DNA from: Escherichia phage EdH4
Sequence record: MK327930.1
Strand: one strand, 5' to 3'
Length of the DNA: 64,000 nt
The number at the start of each line of letters is the position of its first letter. Position 1 is the first letter of the stretch. Positions 22,994 through 38,001 of this stretch are shown here, one piece after another. The notes under the pieces were generated by a model. It searched no databases. It worked only from the letters and a program-made list of their open reading frames with translations, and had not been told where the DNA came from. The translations under genes were made by a program, and so were the position numbers.

Positions 22994-25072
22994 TTAAAAA
23001 GGCGTTTCATCGTCCTCAAAACCAGGGACAGGGTCAGAGGATGGATCATCGTACTGTAGGTCTTCTTGTGTGTCAACAGGCTTAACAGTAGGAGTTACAA
23101 CCTTATCAGCCACAACCTTGCCCATAGGTGTTTCTACAACTGCATGCTCCTGATCCTCAAACATAGCCTGGGGTCTCCAAACAACCTCCCCACCTTCTCC
23201 GTCTGTAAACATCTGCATTTCTTTGTCCCAGTACCAATTACTGGCATCATGGAACTTACCTGTATGCGGATCCATAACTAAAGTGTCAGCAATACCTAAA
23301 GTTTTTGCTGGACGGTTTTTAAGACCTACCAGACGGACACGTCCACGAGAACGATCCACCATTTCTTCGGCCTCGACACCTATGACTACCCAACTCAACT
23401 GTTCAAGCCCAGCCGATCCTCGCAAATTCTCTTTTCGCACAGGATACCAGAAAGGTAATGGGTTACCATCCTTGTCCTTAGGGGGCACAATCTCTGTACG
23501 TTTGAGGTGAGCGATCACCAAGATAAACACGTTAAACTGCTTACAAAACGCAGCCAGTTGGGTCATAGCCATGTCCAGTTCTTTTCGCTCATCCTTAACA
23601 TTAAGCCCTGAAATTACCATGGACAGGTGATCCAGCACAATATAACGACAATGGTACAGGCAAACCATTTGCTTAAGCTTGGTAATCAACTCGTCCACTG
23701 GAATAGACCCGAAATGTTTGAACACTTTGATTTTTCCAGCTTTTGCCCATGATTGGTGAATCTCTGCGTGTTCTTGATCAGTTAAAAACTGGCTAGGATC
23801 TTCAACAAACTCTTTAACATCAAACCCTAACTGGTTTGCATACAAGGAGTTAATTGCTTCCTCTGGGTCCTCCTCAAGATGAATCATGCATAGACGATCA
23901 TCCTCTTCGTAATCATCAGCCTTTGGACATGTCGGGTCCATTAGGTATCTTGCAATACAGTGTTCCAGTTTTTTAGCTACAGTTGTTTTACCGCCCCCTG
24001 ATGGACCTGTAAGCATTACGAGTGTCCCTTTGTGCAAGCCTTTTAGCATTTTTTGCAGTTTTGGGAACTCTGCGCTGATATCTACCCCGTTGGAAGTCTT
24101 TTTCCGCAAAGATTCGATAGAGAAGTCTTCTAAATCCGATACAGCATCCGGTACATACTTAACAGGATGCCGGAACATGTTTACAATATCTTCCAGCTTT
24201 TTAGCCTTCAGCATGTCACGGATATCTTTTACACCGTCAGGATCGTTTACTTCACCAGGGTACTCTACGTGGTAAACGTTATCAGCCATCAAAAATGCTG
24301 CGATATTGTGCGTAGCCTCAACACCTTTAATGACGTGTTTTTGCTTCTCTACCTCGTTAGCTGCATCGTTATCCATTGCCAGCACAACTGTTCCATAGCT
24401 ACGGATAAACTTCTCATTGTTTGCAAAAGTATCTACTGCGTTTGCACATCCACAGTTAATTCCAACAAAAGGTAGGCAGGGTTTTCCTGCCAGATCACCA
24501 CCGTTGATAACTGCATCGATCCCGTCCTGTACCTCTTTAGCCCACTGCTTCACCTTTGCCGGGGCTTTAGCGTTGGTGAGAATCCCTTTTACTTGTATCT
24601 GATATGCAGCCTGCCATGCTGCAATAACATCACCTTCTCCCTCGCAAACGTTAATCTGCTTACGGTTGTTGGAAGATGCACACAGCTTTTGCCCAAACAT
24701 CTGGGAGTTAGCCTTTACTATGCCAACAACGGAGAAATGGCCCCTTTGCTCTTTAGGAATCGTCCAGTCACGCTTTTTGAAACCTGACAGATTTCCGTAG
24801 CGGTCGTAATATGGGAAATATGTTGCAGTGACTGTCACACCGTCTTCTTGGGACAATGCTGATCGCACACCAAAATATTGTGCAGCCATCAGACCGATAT
24901 TTTGTTGTGGGACAGGGACAATTTTAGTATTTTCTAAAACAGTCTCTACAGTTTCAACTTCTTTTTCATCACGATAGTCTCGTTTCACACTCCCCCCACT
25001 TTTATACTTAGTTGCTTTCGGGTTTGGCTCACCGAAACGGTTGTATGCAGATGCCATAAATTTACTTCCCAT
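22994..25072 (-). CDS. Bifunctional primase-helicase (TOPRIM plus DnaB-like helicase)
   Basis: TOPRIM CEGEGD and VLAMDNDAAN; Walker A GPSGGGKT; acidic C-terminal tail ...FEDDETPF. Confidence 0.85.
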   Translation of the reverse strand: MGSKFMASAYNRFGEPNPKATKYKSGGSVKRDYRDEKEVETVETVLENTKIVPVPQQNIGLMAAQYFGVRSALSQEDGVTVTATYFPYYDRYGNLSGFKKRDWTIPKEQRGHFSVVGIVKANSQMFGQKLCASSNNRKQINVCEGEGDVIAAWQAAYQIQVKGILTNAKAPAKVKQWAKEVQDGIDAVINGGDLAGKPCLPFVGINCGCANAVDTFANNEKFIRSYGTVVLAMDNDAANEVEKQKHVIKGVEATHNIAAFLMADNVYHVEYPGEVNDPDGVKDIRDMLKAKKLEDIVNMFRHPVKYVPDAVSDLEDFSIESLRKKTSNGVDISAEFPKLQKMLKGLHKGTLVMLTGPSGGGKTTVAKKLEHCIARYLMDPTCPKADDYEEDDRLCMIHLEEDPEEAINSLYANQLGFDVKEFVEDPSQFLTDQEHAEIHQSWAKAGKIKVFKHFGSIPVDELITKLKQMVCLYHCRYIVLDHLSMVISGLNVKDERKELDMAMTQLAAFCKQFNVFILVIAHLKRTEIVPPKDKDGNPLPFWYPVRKENLRGSAGLEQLSWVVIGVEAEEMVDRSRGRVRLVGLKNRPAKTLGIADTLVMDPHTGKFHDASNWYWDKEMQMFTDGEGGEVVWRPQAMFEDQEHAVVETPMGKVVADKVVTPTVKPVDTQEDLQYDDPSSDPVPGFEDDETPF

Positions 25073-25826
25073 TAATTCTGCTCCTTACTACAGGCTCGTT
25101 TGCTAAGAATACGGCTTTTGCCCAGCCACGTGGTGTGAGACTTCGAATCATCTTCGTTCTTGCACTCTTTCCACCCAGCTTGGCGTGTTGCATAGAATAC
25201 CCGCTAACCGCGTCAACTATTTGCGGGACAGGTTTTGTGGGCGGGATTATAAATCCATTACCTATCCAGCCGCAAGTTATTTTTGGATAGGCATCACGTG
25301 GAGCTATAAATTCAGGAAACCAAGGGTTTACATCATCCTCCGGTAAATACCCACCATAGTCAGAAGGATGAAAACGGTAATCAGGTTTGCGCCACAGTGT
25401 GGACATAACACCCACAGGATTCTCTACATGCCACGGGCAATCGTAAATCTCTCCCAGCTCTTCCGCAACCCGAGCATCCTTTACGGCATTAATTTGGATC
25501 AGAGGGTCCTTAGCCAGCTTTTTCTTAAAATGTGCAGCACCTGATACCGCTAAATGCGTGCACGGAGGAAATGCAAGAATAAAGTCTGGAGCTGGGTACA
25601 TGCAAAAAGTTTCCTGAGGGAACCATGGGTCAATCCAATAATCCACATAGTGAATGTTGGGATGATCGGTTATAACCTCTGCATAACTGCCGTGATCAGC
25701 GCCTTCTGCATTAAAGCACAGGCACAGGTACCCAGCTTTTGCCCAGTCAATGACTGCACCACCAGACCCGTCAAATAGACTCCACACAACACCTTTGTGG
25801 TAGTGTTCTTTGTAGATAAATTTCAA
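25062..25826 (-). CDS. Putative DNA (cytosine-5)-methyltransferase-like protein
   Basis: Motif I SLFDGSGG; motif IV FPPCTHLAVSG; motif VI HVENPVG; start trimmed to a TTG with an AGGAG RBS because the track start lies inside the terminator hairpin. Confidence 0.5.
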   Translation of the reverse strand: MKFIYKEHYHKGVVWSLFDGSGGAVIDWAKAGYLCLCFNAEGADHGSYAEVITDHPNIHYVDYWIDPWFPQETFCMYPAPDFILAFPPCTHLAVSGAAHFKKKLAKDPLIQINAVKDARVAEELGEIYDCPWHVENPVGVMSTLWRKPDYRFHPSDYGGYLPEDDVNPWFPEFIAPRDAYPKITCGWIGNGFIIPPTKPVPQIVDAVSGYSMQHAKLGGKSARTKMIRSLTPRGWAKAVFLANEPVVRSRINGK

Positions 25827-25844
25827 TTTGCTGTCTCCTAATGC

Positions 25845-25871
25845 AAAAAGCCCCACCCTTTCGGGCAGGGC
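25845..25871 (-). terminator. Rho-independent terminator (same hairpin as 15719-15740)
   Basis: gccccaccctttcgggcagggc plus T-run on minus. Confidence 0.65.
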
Positions 25872-25877
25872 CTAGTG

Positions 25878-26360
25878 TTAAACCCGGATACCTATTGTAT
25901 ACTCGGTGGATACCAATGTCAAATCTAAATTTAAAATTTCTTGCATCTCATAATATGCGTCCAGGGTGAGATACATTTCCCCATCCTTTTCTACATACTT
26001 GTCAAGGTGTTTGAGGCACTTTGGATAACTATTAAGGGCAGCCTTTAGGCACTCAAACTCTGTGCTGTTGATGAATCCTTCCATCTTGGCTACCCGTTCT
26101 GGGGTAACGATAGCACTGTAGTGAGATTTAGCTTCCTGAATGCAATGGGTCCAAGCATCAACTTTCTCTTCGAAAAGTCCGAAGAACTTCTTTTTGGTGA
26201 GCTTCAGATTCTTTAAGTGCTTAAGCACTCGGTTGCCGATCACAGATACATCACGAAACTTAAAGATCACTTTGTCAATATCCTCGCGGCCTATTTTTAC
26301 AAAGCAAGCCTCGCACATTTCAGGAGAGGCATATCCTACTTTCCACATAAAATCTGACAT
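25878..26360 (-). CDS. Hypothetical protein
   Basis: 160-aa ORF. Confidence 0.55.
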   Translation of the reverse strand: MSDFMWKVGYASPEMCEACFVKIGREDIDKVIFKFRDVSVIGNRVLKHLKNLKLTKKKFFGLFEEKVDAWTHCIQEAKSHYSAIVTPERVAKMEGFINSTEFECLKAALNSYPKCLKHLDKYVEKDGEMYLTLDAYYEMQEILNLDLTLVSTEYTIGIRV

Positions 26361-26372
26361 AACACTCTCTCC

Positions 26373-26768
26373 TTATTCCTGAAAAGCAACGATATCATAT
26401 GCACTTACCAATGATTCCGGTGAAGAATGACTCCAGTCCAGGTTATCAGAGTATCCAGCGTGCTGTGCACCGCTACGTAGTTTGTATTTTACCCACTTAC
26501 CTGGTGCAGGGTTTTCACCACCTTCCCATGCTTCCCAGTCTTCTGACAGGCCGTCCTGAGAGCAGTCATCCACTTCACTGATAATCTTAGGGTTTGGCAC
26601 CAAGATCCCTGCAGGCTCCTCCTTCCGGATAAGTGTCCACACAGCGTAGGTGTCTGAGCAGGCGCATGATAGCAAAGTATATCCACTATTTAGAACTTCT
26701 GCAAGCTCTTTTTCAGCATCTTCCAATTTGGTTAAGTGGTATTGGATAATCTTCACACCTGTAATCAT
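26373..26768 (-). CDS. Hypothetical protein
   Basis: 131-aa ORF. Confidence 0.55.
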   Translation of the reverse strand: MITGVKIIQYHLTKLEDAEKELAEVLNSGYTLLSCACSDTYAVWTLIRKEEPAGILVPNPKIISEVDDCSQDGLSEDWEAWEGGENPAPGKWVKYKLRSGAQHAGYSDNLDWSHSSPESLVSAYDIVAFQE

Positions 26769-27112
26769 CAGAAACCTCCCACTTCTTCAGCAAATGCAGC
26801 TGCTGTCGTCGCTGCATCCAGATAGGACTCTAGTTCACGGACTGCACGTTTGTAAATTGAGTGGCGCATATCGTTTGGCAATTGGTGGAAGTCCACCTCT
26901 TCACCGTTGTGGTAAACATGCACATCGGTAATTTGTCTAAATCCGTAATAGTCAACATCAGAATCACGGCACTCTGGGTCTGGCAACTGGACAACTGCCT
27001 GAGCTTCCACAGTGAACATATCGTCAAGTTCGAAATCGATTTCAAAAGTGTATGGTTTATAACGTTTCATCATTTGATTGTACTCTTTATTGGTCAGACT
27101 TATCTTTCGCAA
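26768..27112 (-). CDS. Hypothetical protein
   Basis: 114-aa ORF. Confidence 0.55.
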   Translation of the reverse strand: MRKISLTNKEYNQMMKRYKPYTFEIDFELDDMFTVEAQAVVQLPDPECRDSDVDYYGFRQITDVHVYHNGEEVDFHQLPNDMRHSIYKRAVRELESYLDAATTAAAFAEEVGGF

Positions 27113-28412
27113 TTAAGGTCGGGGTAAGTTTGTAATAGCGGAAGCCACCACCACCTTCCCAGTTTACAGACTTAGAAATACCACCTTGATCTTCACCATC
27201 GATCACTTTTTCCAAGCGCGGAATAATATGGGTATGACAATGATCACCTATCTCGATTGAGATCCAACGTCTTTTCATCTTGTGAGCTACAGCAGCAGTA
27301 GTTCCCGAACCACCGAATGAATCCAATACCAAATCGCCTTCTCGCGTACACATTTCGAAAATTCGCTTCAAAAGCGCTTCTGGTTTTTTCCCATTTTTGA
27401 AACTAACGCCACCTTCATTTGCTATTCCATTCCAACTAATGTCTGTCCAAACATCAGTTATTAGTTCCGCAGGTTGCATATCACCGTCAATTTCCAAAAG
27501 CCTGTTGGAGTAAAAGACCATTTGCCTACCATTTACGATATAAAATCCTTCAACATCTTCATTTGGATGTACATAAACCTTATCCCTATCTTTCTTTGAC
27601 TTCTCGATAGTTTCTTTTCTCTTTACTTTAGCACCACCGCCGATTGCAACAGATTGAAATACACGTTCTGCATTATCAATTGCGAATTGTGCTAATTCAT
27701 CATCGAATGTATCAGGCAGTTTTTTCTTGGCCTCTTTTGCATCTTTATAGCCATTGGCCTTTGCAAACGCATCGGCAATACCGCACCACGTCCAATTTTT
27801 ATAATGGTCATCCGGGTTTAATAGGTATTTGTTATATCCTGTATCATACCCTTTAGGTATATAGATTTTGTTAAGCGGTTTCTGGGTGCGATCTTTTGCA
27901 TATACAAGCAAAAAGTTTGCTGTGGAGAAAACTGTGGCTCCTGTTGCCTTAAATCCCGAAGGGGAATTTGTGGTCATCGATATGGTATTTAACTGATTTG
28001 CACGACCAAAAATCTCGTCCATCAAAACTTTTAAATACGCCATTTCGCAATCATCTAAGTGAACGAATATTACCCCATCATCACTTAGAAGATTACGAAT
28101 TATTTCTAACCTATCCCTCATTAAGCCCAGCCAAATGGAATGCTCAAGGCTATCATCGTAGTGCTCAAAAGCCCTTCCAGTATTGAATGGTGGGTCTATG
28201 TAAACACACTTCACTTTGCCTGCATACTCTTGCTCTAGCGCCTTCAATGCTAATAAGTTATCTCCAAAAATCAGTTTATTATCAAAAATATCGTTTTCGG
28301 TCACTTTCTGGCTGTGGTAAGACTTGCTAGAATCTTCTAACAAAATGTGCGGCTCTAACTTTTTGCGCTCGTTTTTACCTATCCAGGTTAGTTCTAATTT
28401 GGTTTTACTCAT
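27087..28412 (-). CDS. DNA methyltransferase, beta-class (N6-adenine or N4-cytosine), Mod-like, apparently orphan
   Basis: Motif IV VYIDPPFNTG precedes motif I DSFGGSGTTAAVA (beta-class order); no restriction subunit nearby. Confidence 0.8.
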   Translation of the reverse strand: MSKTKLELTWIGKNERKKLEPHILLEDSSKSYHSQKVTENDIFDNKLIFGDNLLALKALEQEYAGKVKCVYIDPPFNTGRAFEHYDDSLEHSIWLGLMRDRLEIIRNLLSDDGVIFVHLDDCEMAYLKVLMDEIFGRANQLNTISMTTNSPSGFKATGATVFSTANFLLVYAKDRTQKPLNKIYIPKGYDTGYNKYLLNPDDHYKNWTWCGIADAFAKANGYKDAKEAKKKLPDTFDDELAQFAIDNAERVFQSVAIGGGAKVKRKETIEKSKKDRDKVYVHPNEDVEGFYIVNGRQMVFYSNRLLEIDGDMQPAELITDVWTDISWNGIANEGGVSFKNGKKPEALLKRIFEMCTREGDLVLDSFGGSGTTAAVAHKMKRRWISIEIGDHCHTHIIPRLEKVIDGEDQGGISKSVNWEGGGGFRYYKLTPTLIAKDKSDQ

Positions 28413-28473
28413 CGTTTGGTGCTCTCCTTAGTTTTTGTGGGGAGGAGTGCCTCCCCTTTATACTCACATCTTA

Positions 28474-28815
28474 CTACTCAAGGTCTTCAGAGTCAAGCTC
28501 AAAAAGAATCAAACTGTGCATACCTGCAGAGAGATTAACACACCCTGCAACAATAAGGGTTTGATAGTAAGGTTCAGCACCCTCAATGTCTTCGTTAAAA
28601 TCCACAACAAGGTAGTCACCTTTGTTAAAGGTGTATTTGTCCGATGTAAACGCAAAACCTGCCCAGTCCCCTACTGCAGGATCTTTATCAGTCACCTTTG
28701 TCAGCAGTAGATCTTTTTCACGAGATCTTTTAGTAAAATCGTGAATCACAACATCCTTCTCTTCAGGAGTTGGATTGCCACACACGTAGTTAACTATATT
28801 TCTCCACAAACTCAT
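28474..28815 (-). CDS. Hypothetical protein
   Basis: 113-aa ORF. Confidence 0.55.
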   Translation of the reverse strand: MSLWRNIVNYVCGNPTPEEKDVVIHDFTKRSREKDLLLTKVTDKDPAVGDWAGFAFTSDKYTFNKGDYLVVDFNEDIEGAEPYYQTLIVAGCVNLSAGMHSLILFELDSEDLE

Positions 28816-36826: not shown

Positions 36827-37105
36827 TTAGGCAATTGTCATTTTACATTCTTGAAATTTTAACACAAGACGGTGATTGTGTCTAGTGTCTAAAAATATTT
36901 TTTCAACCATCAGGCACACGGTATAACCGTCCATCTTGTTGACAACAAAATCTCCAGGATGAGGGAGGATGTCTCCCGGATTGGGGAAACATAGTCCACT
37001 CAGAAAGGCATCGTCAGTGGTGGACTTAATAGATTTCCACACACTGTCTGCCTGAACATGTTCACCGACGTAATATACATTACCACACGCCTTCATCATA
37101 GTCAA
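36827..37105 (-). CDS. Hypothetical protein
   Basis: 92-aa ORF. Confidence 0.5.
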   Translation of the reverse strand: MTMMKACGNVYYVGEHVQADSVWKSIKSTTDDAFLSGLCFPNPGDILPHPGDFVVNKMDGYTVCLMVEKIFLDTRHNHRLVLKFQECKMTIA

Positions 37106-38001
37106 ACCCTCGCATAAATTAAACTTGTATCAGTATACTTCTTTAATGGGTAAATATCCTGTCCATAGATGCAATCATTAAACACCTCATCTACCCAAAG
37201 GCTACACTTATATCCCATCATTTCTAAAACACCCATCTCTTCTTCGGTAAACTTATCACCGCTCTTGCAAGATGTCAATACCTCATTCTGAACTCTTGCT
37301 ACCTCGAAGCGGTTATTGGCAATATCGCTATTGGCGATCAAATACTCACCTAGAGGGTGTGCGGCATTAAAGATGCACAGTGGACGGCTGACGTAATAGT
37401 CTCCAGGTGTATAAAAATTGTTGAGGTCTTTCACTAGAACATTCTTATCAGTCACTTCATTTATAACATCATGCATATCGCACATCTTTATATGTTTGAG
37501 GATTCCATCCCCCATCACAAAATAAAAACTTGCTGAGACACTTTCGGCATAGATCCTACTAGATCCGTTGTAGTTGTATTTTACTCGGATGCTAACGGGG
37601 GTTTTTCCTGTCGCGTTAGCCATCATCCAAAGAAATGGCAGCTCATACTTCTCCTCTGAGGAAACAAAAGGTGAGGTAGCCAGAGATCGAAAACCTCCAG
37701 AGAAGTTGAAAGTTACAGAACCGCTCCGGCGGTATGATACCGCGTATTCTACTTTTATATCGACATACCCATTGGAATAGGTGTGTCCTTCATTATCTAA
37801 ATATGTCCACTTATCAGACCCAGATACCAATCTACGCTCAATAACCTTCATCACTATAGGAATTAATGGGTTGGTACAAACCGCTTTTGAAGTAGCTTTA
37901 TCATCTAAAGCCTCGTAAATTGCAGAAAGGATGTCCCCAGCTGAAAGATTGGTTGTTATGTCCTGTTTCCACCGCGTACTAAAACTGTTAAGATTTGCCA
38001 T
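37102..38001 (-). CDS. Hypothetical protein
   Basis: 299-aa ORF, first gene of the minus-strand operon. Confidence 0.6.
   Translation of the reverse strand: MANLNSFSTRWKQDITTNLSAGDILSAIYEALDDKATSKAVCTNPLIPIVMKVIERRLVSGSDKWTYLDNEGHTYSNGYVDIKVEYAVSYRRSGSVTFNFSGGFRSLATSPFVSSEEKYELPFLWMMANATGKTPVSIRVKYNYNGSSRIYAESVSASFYFVMGDGILKHIKMCDMHDVINEVTDKNVLVKDLNNFYTPGDYYVSRPLCIFNAAHPLGEYLIANSDIANNRFEVARVQNEVLTSCKSGDKFTEEEMGVLEMMGYKCSLWVDEVFNDCIYGQDIYPLKKYTDTSLIYARV

What the first reader, a model, noticed from the sequence alone, without database searches (positions are those of the whole stretch)
25062..28412. Two DNA methyltransferases of different classes flanking three unknown genes
A small C5-cytosine-MTase-like protein (FDGSGG, PC-x-x-L-x-VSG, ENP; 254 aa after start correction) and a 441-aa beta-class N6A/N4C MTase (DPPF before FGGSGTT) lie 1.2 kb apart with three unknown genes between them and no restriction endonuclease. 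This points to a self-protective DNA modification module against host restriction. The compact C5-like enzyme lacks an obvious large target-recognition domain, so it may be non-specific or may be something other than a DNA MTase.
Basis: partly seen in the sequence, partly recalled or inferred. Interest (0 to 1): 0.5.

Follow-up and report, generated by a model that had tools for sequence, protein, structure and literature searches.

The report
Two orphan phage DNA methyltransferases
An rV5-like E. coli phage carries two stand-alone DNA methylases beside its replication genes, a compact cytosine methylase common in phages and a shortened copy of a host restriction system's adenine methylase; this is an ordinary, already annotated anti-restriction kit, not a new system.

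Summary
The window is an rV5-like Vequintavirus, 98.9% identical to phage naswa. Both genes are already annotated in over 100 public phage records and mentioned in papers.

- **441-aa protein.** It is a Type III Mod. Its DNA is 93.7% identical to the 5' 77% of a chromosomal E. coli mod gene that sits next to a res gene. An 11-nt deletion removes the C-terminal domain, which in EcoP15I contacts Res.
- **Evidence of function.** dN/dS among phage copies is about 0.1, so the truncated gene is under purifying selection.
- **Evidence against a module.** The mod gene is missing from about a quarter of Vequintaviruses. The Dcm-like gene and the three small genes are kept in all of them.

The two genes are therefore independent orphan methylases, not one module. 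BASEL plating data show no protection against EcoRI or EcoRV, at most leaky protection against EcoCFT_II, and no mod-linked protection against EcoP1I. Any protection must be narrow. The target motifs remain undetermined.

The parts
25062..25826 (-). Compact Dcm-like C5-cytosine DNA methyltransferase (254 aa, TTG start). It overlaps the primase/helicase start by 11 nt. Motif I FDGSGG at 25758-25775, catalytic PPC at 25560-25568, ENP at 25416-25424, motif-X-like IRSLTPRG at 25125-25148.
25848..25873 (-). Terminator-like hairpin (11 pairs, followed by TTTTT) between gp160 and the Dcm-like gene. The spurious GTG start at 25856 lies inside it.
25878..26360 (-). Small ORF of 160 aa, unknown function, restricted to rV5-like phages (phrog_12900).
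   Evidence: no Pfam or NCBIfam match. Kept in phages that lack mod.
26373..26768 (-). Small ORF of 131 aa, unknown function (phrog_11995). It has two mini-domains and varies more than its neighbours (80-95% identity among relatives).
   Evidence: The AF2 model was poor, pLDDT 48.6.
26768..27070 (-). Small ORF of 100 aa, unknown function (phrog_4240). Homologue of SSE121 gp080.
27087..28412 (-). Orphan Type III Mod-like beta-class N6-adenine methyltransferase (441 aa) that lacks the C-terminal domain. DPPF at 28185-28196, FGGSGTT at 27297-27317, target-recognition region about aa 180-335.
   Evidence: PF01555 at E 1.7e-42. PADLOC MTase_III PDLC03636 at E 4.4e-203, covering profile positions 2-444 of 575. 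Solved Mods 6k0w at E 1.2e-28 and EcoP15I Mod at E 2.9e-24. dN/dS of 0.08-0.12 among phage copies.
27078..28425 (-). Segment 93.7% identical in DNA to the 5' part of a chromosomal E. coli Type III mod gene. An 11-nt deletion near 27096 shifts the frame to KSDQ-stop, and about 20 nt of former coding sequence follow the stop.
28409..28417 (-). AAACGATGA, the first copy of a 9-nt direct repeat. It contains the mod start codon and marks one edge of the 1,342-bp mod insertion/deletion.
27067..27075 (-). AAATGATGA, the second copy of the repeat. It contains the gp100 start codon and marks the other edge of the insertion/deletion.
28474..28815 (-). Small ORF of 113 aa upstream of mod (phrog_11869). 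Homologue of SSE121 gp081, which in SSE121 lies directly next to the gp100 homologue.

Best explanation
These are two independent orphan DNA methyltransferases in the replication-gene block of an rV5-like Vequintavirus. They are not one module.

**(A) The 254-aa protein.** It is a core gene of the genus. It belongs to a very large phage and prophage family of compact, DNMT3-like C5-cytosine DNA methyltransferases. It most likely uses SAM and Cys89 to make 5-methylcytosine at a short motif. The motif would be read by a small, highly conserved insert between motif VI and the C-terminal motifs (inferred). The motif itself is unknown; CCWGG was proposed for a homologue. Methylation would protect replicated phage DNA from nucleases that cut that motif. 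It would also make the phage detectable by methylation-sensing retrons such as Ec86.

**(B) The 441-aa protein.** It is an accessory gene. It is a copy of the mod gene of a chromosomal E. coli Type III restriction-modification system. The copy keeps the N-terminal dimerisation region, the catalytic core and a nearly identical target-recognition region. It has lost the C-terminal domain, which in EcoP15I binds Res. It most likely works as a stand-alone Mod dimer. It would N6-methylate adenine in the asymmetric site of that particular host system and so immunise the phage against it (inferred).

**(C) The three small genes between them.** They are lineage-specific genes of unknown function. They are not tied to either methylase.
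For: **Shown for the Dcm-like gene.**
- Family and fold assignment.
- Catalytic residues are invariant across 35 homologues.
- It is 54% identical over its full length to the KarlJaspers Dcm. The near-identical K42 enzyme raised 5mC in msDNA by LC-MS and triggered retron Ec86, and a catalytic mutant did not.
- It is core in the genus: 116 records at 90% identity or more.

**Shown for the mod gene.**
- It matches the Type III Mod family at E 4.4e-203 but covers only profile positions 2-444 of 575.
- 24 of 5,426 complete E. coli genomes carry a 567/568-aa gene about 94.7% identical in DNA over nearly the whole phage gene; measured on strain APEC E16002, the homologous segment, flanks included, is 93.7% identical in DNA and the protein 95.4%.
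- In the two loci examined, that gene sits directly upstream of a 912-aa protein that matches PADLOC REase_III at E 8.8e-191 and Pfam ResIII.
- An 11-nt deletion creates the phage stop codon, and remnant coding sequence lies beyond it. This sets the direction of descent: the phage gene derives from a full-length mod.
- dN/dS is 0.08-0.12 among phage copies.
- The gene has the lowest GC of its neighbourhood, 0.395.
- In EcoP15I, Mod dimerises through its NTD and MTase domains, works as a stand-alone methylase, and contacts Res through its CTD, aa 539-644. The missing phage segment aligns to that CTD.

**Shown for independence of the two genes.**

**Context.** Bas51 virion DNA is about 100% m6A at GATC and at GTAC. 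It also has about 350 further m6A sites that do not depend on the GATC enzyme.
Against: - No experiment assigns a motif or activity to either of these two proteins in a Vequintavirus.
- The only Vequintavirus methylome called 6mA only. Its genetics concern a third enzyme, bas51_0176, which lies outside this window.
- The window's Dcm-like protein itself gets no Pfam PF00145 hit. One of the four residues mutated in K42 Dcm, K176, is Ile here.
- The CCWGG assignment for K42 Dcm rests on msDNA mutants only.
- Loss of the CTD could impair Mod activity.
- About a quarter of Vequintaviruses do without mod.
- Phages with both genes remain highly sensitive to every restriction system tested in BASEL.
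- The about 350 'other' m6A sites may be base-caller noise.
Confidence: 0.65

Rival explanations
1. One reading: the five genes form one co-functional, self-protective DNA-modification module, and the three unknown genes are accessory factors.
For: The genes lie close together on the same strand. A pair made of an adenine methylase and this compact Dcm-like enzyme, with small genes between them, also occurs in an E. coli lambdoid prophage: Dam, DUF6378, a 165-aa gene, then the Dcm-like gene.
Against: - Mod is a clean presence/absence polymorphism while the other four genes persist.
- SSE121 keeps the Dcm-like gene and homologues of gp113 and gp100 but has no mod.
- A terminator-like hairpin precedes the Dcm-like gene.
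- The small genes have no enzyme domain and are confined to rV5-like phages.
Confidence: 0.06
2. The 441-aa enzyme is the GTAC (GTm6AC) methylase responsible for the roughly 510 methylated GTAC adenines seen in Bas51. It does not recognise an asymmetric Type III site.
For: - GTAC is 99% methylated in Bas51, independently of the GATC enzyme.
- To my knowledge E. coli K-12 has no GTAC adenine methylase (own knowledge, not tested here).
- GTAC is strongly depleted in the phage genome, observed/expected 0.59.
- Bas51 carries this gene at 98% identity.
Against: - Bas51 also has a 272-aa gamma-class methylase, bas51_0200, with EPSAGRGSF then NPPF.
- The characterised GTm6AC enzyme M.HpyAXII is gamma-class, with its NPP motif at residue 87.
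- The 441-aa protein derives from a true Type III Mod paired with Res. To my knowledge such systems use asymmetric sites (own knowledge).
Confidence: 0.25
3. The truncated Mod is mainly a decoy. It forms mixed dimers with the host Mod that cannot recruit Res, or it is a decaying remnant. In either case it is not chiefly a methylase.
For: The CTD that contacts Res is missing while the dimerisation regions are 95% identical to the host Mod. The gene is dispensable in about a quarter of genomes.
Against: Strong purifying selection acts over the whole ORF, including the catalytic motifs and the recognition region. A remnant is therefore unlikely. A decoy role does not exclude methylation. No interaction data exist.
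Confidence: 0.12
4. The 254-aa enzyme starts a cytosine hypermodification pathway, for example CmoX-like carboxymethylation that neighbouring genes then elaborate.
Against: - The window genes scanned and the annotation of the syntenic region in relatives show no CmoA, ligase, TET or clear DNA glycosyltransferase nearby.
- The K42 homologue yields 5mC.
- Vequintaviruses are exceptionally sensitive to restriction, which argues against bulky modification.
Confidence: 0.04
5. The compact enzyme is sequence-non-specific, or acts on RNA or tRNA as Dnmt2 does, because it lacks a large target-recognition domain.
Against: - DNA methylases (DNMT3B, CmoX, prophage methylases, M.HhaI) rank higher.
- An insert of about 85 residues, highly conserved and confidently modelled, takes the place of the recognition domain.
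- The homologue methylates DNA.
Confidence: 0.05

Closest known systems
Phage K42 / KarlJaspers (Bas06) Dcm-like C5 methyltransferase, the trigger of retron Ec86 (bioRxiv 10.1101/2023.08.16.553469)
   Same: It belongs to the same compact family (phrog_757) and is 54% identical over the full length. C82, E128 and K175 correspond to C89, E135 and K182 here. Both are orphan genes located near replication and helicase genes.
   Different: It comes from a different phage family, Drexlerviridae rather than Vequintavirinae. K176 is Ile here. The Vequintavirus enzyme has an N-terminal extension of about 10 residues. Its activity, motif and ability to trigger a retron are untested.
Catalytic domain of DNMT3A/DNMT3B, with M.HhaI and M.HaeIII (classical C5 DNA methyltransferases, PF00145)
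   Different: Identity is 12-18%. The window protein falls below Pfam's threshold. It has no regulatory domains. The oligomeric state is unknown.
Chromosomal E. coli Type III R-M pair, for example WP_213054361.1 (Mod, 568 aa) with WP_228594636.1 (Res, 912 aa) in APEC E16002
   Same: Protein identity is 95.4% over 438 residues, including the recognition region. DNA identity is 93.7%. Both match the same PADLOC Mod model, PDLC03636.
   Different: The phage copy lacks about 125 C-terminal residues (the CTD) and has no res gene. The host pair sits in a defence island with a mad1-like HTH gene, a DrmD-like SNF2 gene and an AbiD-like gene in both strains, plus an AIPR/AbiU-like gene in APEC E16002 (a 206-aa hypothetical gene takes its place in SMN152SH1).
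EcoP15I Mod (PDB 4ZCF; Gupta et al. 2015, PMC4490356)
   Same: It is a beta-class N6-adenine methylase with NTD, MTase, TRD and MTase segments in the same order. The N-terminal and catalytic regions align at E 2.9e-24. A Mod dimer can methylate on its own.
   Different: The recognition region is not alignable, so the specificity differs. EcoP15I Mod has the CTD (aa 539-644) that binds Res, and the phage protein ends before it.
Other Vequintavirus methylases outside the window: bas51_0176 (177 aa, NPPY, GATC-specific, trigger of retrons Asa1 and Squ1) and bas51_0200 (272 aa, gamma-class)
   Same: They are orphan phage DNA methylases in the same genomes. They show that phage-made m6A is present on virion DNA.
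   Different: They belong to different families and lie at different loci. Neither is in this window. Both are core genes, whereas the Mod-like gene is accessory.

Membership tests
C5-cytosine DNA methyltransferase superfamily (PF00145-like) | Motif I (FxGxG, SAM binding) | tested here: met
   F18-D-G-S-G-G23. G20, S21 and G22 are 90% or more conserved in 35 homologues.
C5-cytosine DNA methyltransferase superfamily (PF00145-like) | Motif IV Pro-Cys with the catalytic cysteine | tested here: met
   P87, P88 and C89 are invariant. C89 corresponds to C82 of K42 Dcm.
C5-cytosine DNA methyltransferase superfamily (PF00145-like) | Motif VI ENV with the glutamate | tested here: met
   E135, N136 and P137 are invariant, reading ENP instead of ENV.
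C5-cytosine DNA methyltransferase superfamily (PF00145-like) | Significant match to the Pfam model | tested here: inconclusive
   The window protein has no hit at E up to 0.1. 21 of 35 homologues hit PF00145 at E up to 1, best 1.3e-6. The family profile finds only C5 methylases in the PDB, but at E about 0.1.
C5-cytosine DNA methyltransferase superfamily (PF00145-like) | C5 DNA methyltransferase fold | tested here: met
C5-cytosine DNA methyltransferase superfamily (PF00145-like) | Formation of 5mC in DNA | not testable with these tools
   Shown only for the 54% identical K42 enzyme.
Compact phage Dcm-like family (phrog_757; retron Ec86 trigger) | Full-length match to the family, with length about 210-260 aa | tested here: met
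   phrog_757 at E 6.3e-87. 1,997 clusters at 50% identity, mostly 210-260 aa. 1,503 phage records.
Compact phage Dcm-like family (phrog_757; retron Ec86 trigger) | Activation of retron Ec86 by methylation of msDNA | not testable with these tools
   No data exist for Vequintavirus enzymes.
Beta-class N6A/N4C amino-methyltransferases (PF01555) | Motif IV (D/S)PP(Y/F) lies N-terminal to motif I FxGxG, with the recognition region between them | tested here: met
   DPPF at aa 73-76 and FGGSGTT at aa 366-372. PF01555 scores 146 bits against a cut-off of 26.7. Asp in motif IV and Mod homology favour N6-adenine (inference).
Type III R-M modification subunit (Mod) | Sequence membership in a Type III Mod family | tested here: met
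   PADLOC MTase_III PDLC03636 at E 4.4e-203. Solved Mods 6k0w and 4zcf. 95.4% identical to a Mod paired with Res.
Type III R-M modification subunit (Mod) | Complete domain set, including the Res-contacting C-terminal domain | tested here: not met
   The protein covers profile positions 2-444 of 575. An 11-nt deletion causes a frameshift. The CTD role is taken from EcoP15I.
Type III R-M modification subunit (Mod) | Adjacent res gene (a working R-M system) | tested here: not met
   The neighbours are small ORFs and a Pif1/Dda-like helicase, which is also present in phages without mod. The gene is an orphan.

The most novel reading that the evidence does not exclude
The accessory 441-aa gene is a weaponised fragment of a host defence gene. 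The phage captured the mod gene of an E. coli Type III restriction system and trimmed it to remove exactly the domain that binds Res.

The product would pre-methylate phage DNA at that system's site. It is also 95% identical to the host Mod in the dimerisation regions. It could therefore form mixed dimers that cannot recruit Res and so poison the host enzyme directly.

The presence/absence polymorphism of the gene in Vequintaviruses would then track exposure to hosts that carry this island.
Probability: 0.15. Interest if true: 0.55.

Novelty: already known. Interest (0 to 1): 0.27.

Why it matters
rV5-like phages are common candidates for therapy and biocontrol, and restriction is their main known weakness. 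Knowing what their methylases target tells which hosts they can enter.

- **The Dcm-like family.** It occurs in over 1,500 phage genomes, yet its motif has never been rigorously determined. It is also a liability, because retron Ec86 senses it.
- **The truncated Mod.** It is a clean, testable example of a phage borrowing the antidote half of a specific host restriction system. Natural mod+ and mod- phages are already available in the BASEL collection for the experiment.

None of this changes the verdict. The finding as stated is ordinary and already annotated.

Tried and rejected
- **Mod presence against BASEL restriction phenotypes.** There is no link. EcoP1I EOP was 0.02-0.04 (Bas50, Bas52), about 2e-3 (Bas55) and below 1e-13 (Bas51) with mod. 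It was 0.12-0.57 (Bas56, Bas57) and below 5e-13 (Bas58) without mod. All phages are restricted by EcoRI and EcoRV; EcoCFT_II gave no plaques for most, but it was leaky for Bas51 (EOP up to 0.06).
- **Reading the Bas51 retron-trigger 'N6 adenine methyltransferase' as the 441-aa gene.** Rejected. The mutated residues D69, D79 and T83 fit bas51_0176 (177 aa, NPPY), not the 441-aa protein.
- **Assigning GTAC methylation to the 441-aa enzyme.** Left open, because a gamma-class 272-aa methylase is an equally good or better candidate.
- **Characterising the three small genes.**
  - Pfam and NCBIfam found nothing.
  - Large-database searches found only rV5-like relatives.
  - AF2 of gp131 gave pLDDT 48.6, too poor for a fold search.
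  - Weak PHROG hits to families labelled 'DNA ligase' or 'DNA methyltransferase' are short and probably mislabelled.
- **Motif over- or under-representation in the window.** CCWGG is at 0.85 and GATC at 0.99, which is not informative about specificity.
- **Whether the E. coli island is ARMADA II.** It is not; ARMADA II has a different gene set.
- **Literature on RsaI/GTAC resistance in rV5-like phages.** Nothing relevant was found.

Full report
**Identity of the window.** The 4.5 kb around the finding matches 117 phage records at 90-99% identity. The best match is Escherichia phage naswa at 98.9%. All matches are rV5-like Vequintaviruses. The window maps to positions 28.5-95.4 kb of phage WalterGehring (Bas51). 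The genes lie on the minus strand, in this transcriptional order:
1. rIIA
2. rIIB
3. Pif1/Dda-like helicase
4. gp113
5. the 441-aa methylase
6. gp100
7. gp131
8. gp160
9. a terminator-like hairpin
10. the 254-aa methylase
11. primase/helicase
12. DNA polymerase

**Checking the observation.**
- The 264-aa ORF begins at a GTG inside a hairpin (25873-25848). A TTG at 25826 with AGGAG upstream gives the 254-aa protein that curated BASEL records annotate.
- FDGSGG, PPC and ENP are at aa 18-23, 87-89 and 135-137.
- In the 441-aa protein, DPPF (aa 73-76) precedes FGGSGTT (aa 366-372).
- Three ORFs of 160, 131 and 100 aa lie between the two methylase genes.
- No nuclease or Res domain appears in the genes scanned, from the primase/helicase to rIIA.

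**The 254-aa protein.**
- *Family.* It gets no Pfam or NCBIfam hit itself. It matches phrog_757 at E 6.3e-87. A database search found 3,553 homologues, mostly 225-260 aa. An exhaustive profile search found 1,997 clusters at 50% identity. A tblastn search found the family in 1,503 of 50,697 phage records, in phages of Escherichia, Klebsiella, Salmonella, Vibrio and other genera.
- *Link to PF00145.* 21 of 35 homologues touch Pfam PF00145, best E 1.3e-6. The family profile retrieves only C5 methylases from PDB sequences, weakly.
- *Conserved residues.* P87, P88, C89, E135, N136, P137, R177, K182, R228 and R233 are invariant. The roughly 85 residues that stand where a recognition domain would be are among the most conserved in the family. 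The recognition region is therefore small but present.
- *Experimental anchor.* The protein is 54% identical over its full length to the Dcm-like protein of KarlJaspers. Its close relative from phage K42 raised 5mC in retron Ec86 msDNA and triggered the retron. A C82A/E128A/K175A/K176A mutant did not.
- *Open point.* The CCWGG assignment in that study rests only on msDNA mutants. I treat the motif as undetermined.
- *Distribution.* The gene is core in Vequintavirus, with 116 records at 90% identity or more. It occupies the same position in the Seunavirus SSE121.

**The 441-aa protein.**
- *Family.* It matches PF01555 at E 1.7e-42. Among solved structures it is closest to Type III Mods: H. pylori Mod 6k0w at E 1.2e-28 and EcoP15I Mod at E 2.9e-24.
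- *Host counterpart.* Its 90%-identity cluster also contains 567/568-aa E. coli chromosomal proteins. 24 of 5,426 complete E. coli genomes carry a gene about 94.7% identical in DNA over 99% of the phage gene.
- *The host gene has a Res partner.* In both strains examined it is followed by a 912-aa protein. That protein matches PADLOC REase_III at E 8.8e-191 and Pfam ResIII. The pair sits in a defence island with a mad1-like HTH gene, a DrmD-like SNF2 gene and an AbiD-like gene; APEC E16002 also has an AIPR/AbiU-like gene there, where SMN152SH1 has a 206-aa hypothetical gene.
- *Truncation.* The host Mod covers the PADLOC MTase_III model end to end, positions 2-572 of 575. The phage protein stops at position 444.
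- *Direction of descent.* DNA homology runs from 28425 to 27078 at 93.7% identity. An 11-nt deletion shifts the frame to KSDQ-stop. About 20 nt of former coding sequence follow the stop. The phage gene therefore descends from a full-length mod.
- *Protein identity.* It is 95.4% over 438 residues, and the recognition region is almost unchanged.
- *Selection.* dN/dS is 0.08-0.12 among three phage copies and about 0.09 against the host gene. The truncated gene is kept by selection.
- *What was lost.* In EcoP15I, the Mod dimer forms through its NTD and MTase domains and can methylate on its own. The CTD (aa 539-644) of one protomer makes the extensive contacts with Res. The missing phage segment aligns to that CTD.
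- *Inference.* The phage makes a Mod that methylates the host system's site but cannot recruit Res.

**Not one module.**
- About 86 Vequintavirus records carry mod at 90% identity or more.
- About 30 records have a clean gap in its place. Examples are MaxTheCat, AlexBoehm and HeinrichReichert. They keep the Dcm-like gene and all four small genes.
- The insertion/deletion is 1,342 bp. It is bounded by 9-nt repeats, AAACGATGA and AAATGATGA, which contain the start codons of mod and gp100.
- In SSE121 the homologues of gp113 and gp100 are adjacent.
- Mod has the lowest GC of the block, 0.395 against 0.439 for the window.

**Experimental context from the literature.**
- *Restriction sensitivity.* The BASEL study found Vequintavirinae 'exceptionally susceptible' to restriction systems.
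- *Raw plating data.* Its raw data show EcoRI EOP of about 1e-3 to 1e-4 and no plaques on EcoRV. EcoCFT_II gave no plaques for most of these phages, though Bas51 reached an EOP of 0.006-0.06 in several experiments. This holds for phages with both methylases. EcoP1I sensitivity varies widely with no relation to mod.
- *Methylome.* A 2025 study sequenced native Bas51 DNA. It found 1,405 methylated GATC adenines, 509 GTAC and 576 other. A T83P mutant of an 'N6 adenine methyltransferase' had 35, 511 and 349.
- *Which enzyme was mutated.* That enzyme is bas51_0176, a 177-aa NPPY protein outside this window.
- *Completeness of methylation.* Bas51 has 703 GATC and 258 GTAC sites, so both are about 99-100% methylated.
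- *Who methylates GTAC.* GTAC methylation must be phage-encoded, because to my knowledge K-12 has no such enzyme (own knowledge, not tested here). The candidates are the 441-aa Mod and a 272-aa gamma-class methylase, bas51_0200. The characterised GTm6AC enzyme M.HpyAXII is gamma-class. To my knowledge Type III Mods read asymmetric sites (own knowledge). I therefore favour the gamma-class enzyme for GTAC. I expect the Mod motif to lie among the about 350 'other' sites, but this is unproven.

**The three small genes.**
- They have no Pfam or NCBIfam match.
- Two of them, gp100 and gp131, were searched against the large protein database, which returned only rV5-like relatives. gp160 was not searched there; its only strong match is phrog_12900.
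- gp131 could not be modelled, pLDDT 48.6.
- Nothing links them to methylation.

**Novelty.**
- Both genes are annotated as 'Dcm-like C5 cytosine methyltransferase' and 'N6 adenine methyltransferase' or 'Type III methylation subunit' in many records.
- Papers on Vequintavirinae already note an adenine and a cytosine methylase.
- Pairs of adenine and cytosine methylases are routine in enterobacterial phages and prophages.
- The finding is therefore already known.
- The one point that I did not see stated in the papers read is that the Mod gene is a recent, CTD-less capture of a specific E. coli Type III mod, polymorphic within the genus.

Noticed in passing
Outside the window; L011:34092-34625 (bas51_0176) and L014:80-898 (bas51_0200): Vequintaviruses encode four DNA methylases, not two. 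The other two are a 177-aa NPPY enzyme, shown experimentally to methylate GATC and to trigger retrons Asa1 and Squ1, and a 272-aa gamma-class enzyme. Both are core genes in the genus.
   Followed up: partly
Bas51 genome assembled from L010-L014; window-wide k-mer counts: GTAC is strongly depleted: observed/expected 0.59 in Bas51 and 0.66 in the window, second only to CTAG. Yet 99% of GTAC adenines are methylated in virion DNA. The responsible enzyme has not been assigned.
   Followed up: partly
BASEL S1 Data (PMC8594841), phages Bas50-Bas59: EcoP1I sensitivity differs by more than 12 orders of magnitude among near-identical Vequintaviruses. Bas56 and Bas57 have EOP 0.1-0.6. Bas51 and Bas58 give no plaques. 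Presence of the Mod-like gene does not explain this.
   Followed up: partly
window 25894-25922 (-) and 25848-25873 (-): A near-consensus sigma-70-like promoter (TTGACA, 17 nt, TACAAT; 11 of 12 matches) lies inside the 3' end of gp160, immediately upstream of the terminator-like hairpin that precedes the Dcm-like gene. This is an odd promoter-then-terminator arrangement. The total count of promoter-like sites in the region is no higher than chance.
   Followed up: no
GenBank MG0656xx 'Campylobacter phage' records (e.g. C12, A140-A147, C9): About 16-50 records labelled as Campylobacter jejuni phages are 97-99.5% identical to E. coli rV5-like phages. Their host labels are probably wrong, or they are contaminants.
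   Followed up: no
L015:2919-13464 and L016:2115-11464 (E. coli chromosomes): The host Type III mod-res pair always follows the same genes in both strains examined: a mad1-like HTH gene, a DrmD-like SNF2 helicase and an AbiD-like gene. In one strain an AIPR/AbiU-like gene follows as well. The set could be one composite defence island or one system.
   Followed up: partly
window 37102-38001 (-): A 299-aa ORF is annotated in BASEL relatives as 'putative 1-3 fucosyltransferase'. It has no Pfam hit, and what it glycosylates is unknown.
   Followed up: no
L006:8132-8803 (HeinrichReichert): In this relative a homing-endonuclease gene is inserted between the Dcm-like gene and the primase/helicase gene. 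In the window those two genes overlap by 11 nt.
   Followed up: no
window 28439-28456: A GC-rich hairpin (GGGGAGGCACTCCTCCCC) lies between gp113 and mod. It is also present in the mod-less phage MaxTheCat, so it belongs to the phage backbone and not to the captured segment.
   Followed up: partly
window 28409-28425 versus L015:8987-9005: The phage ribosome-binding and start region upstream of gp100 in mod-less phages (AGCACTAAACGATGA) resembles the host mod start region (AGCACAGAAATGATGA). This microhomology of about 15-18 nt may have mediated the capture.
   Followed up: partly
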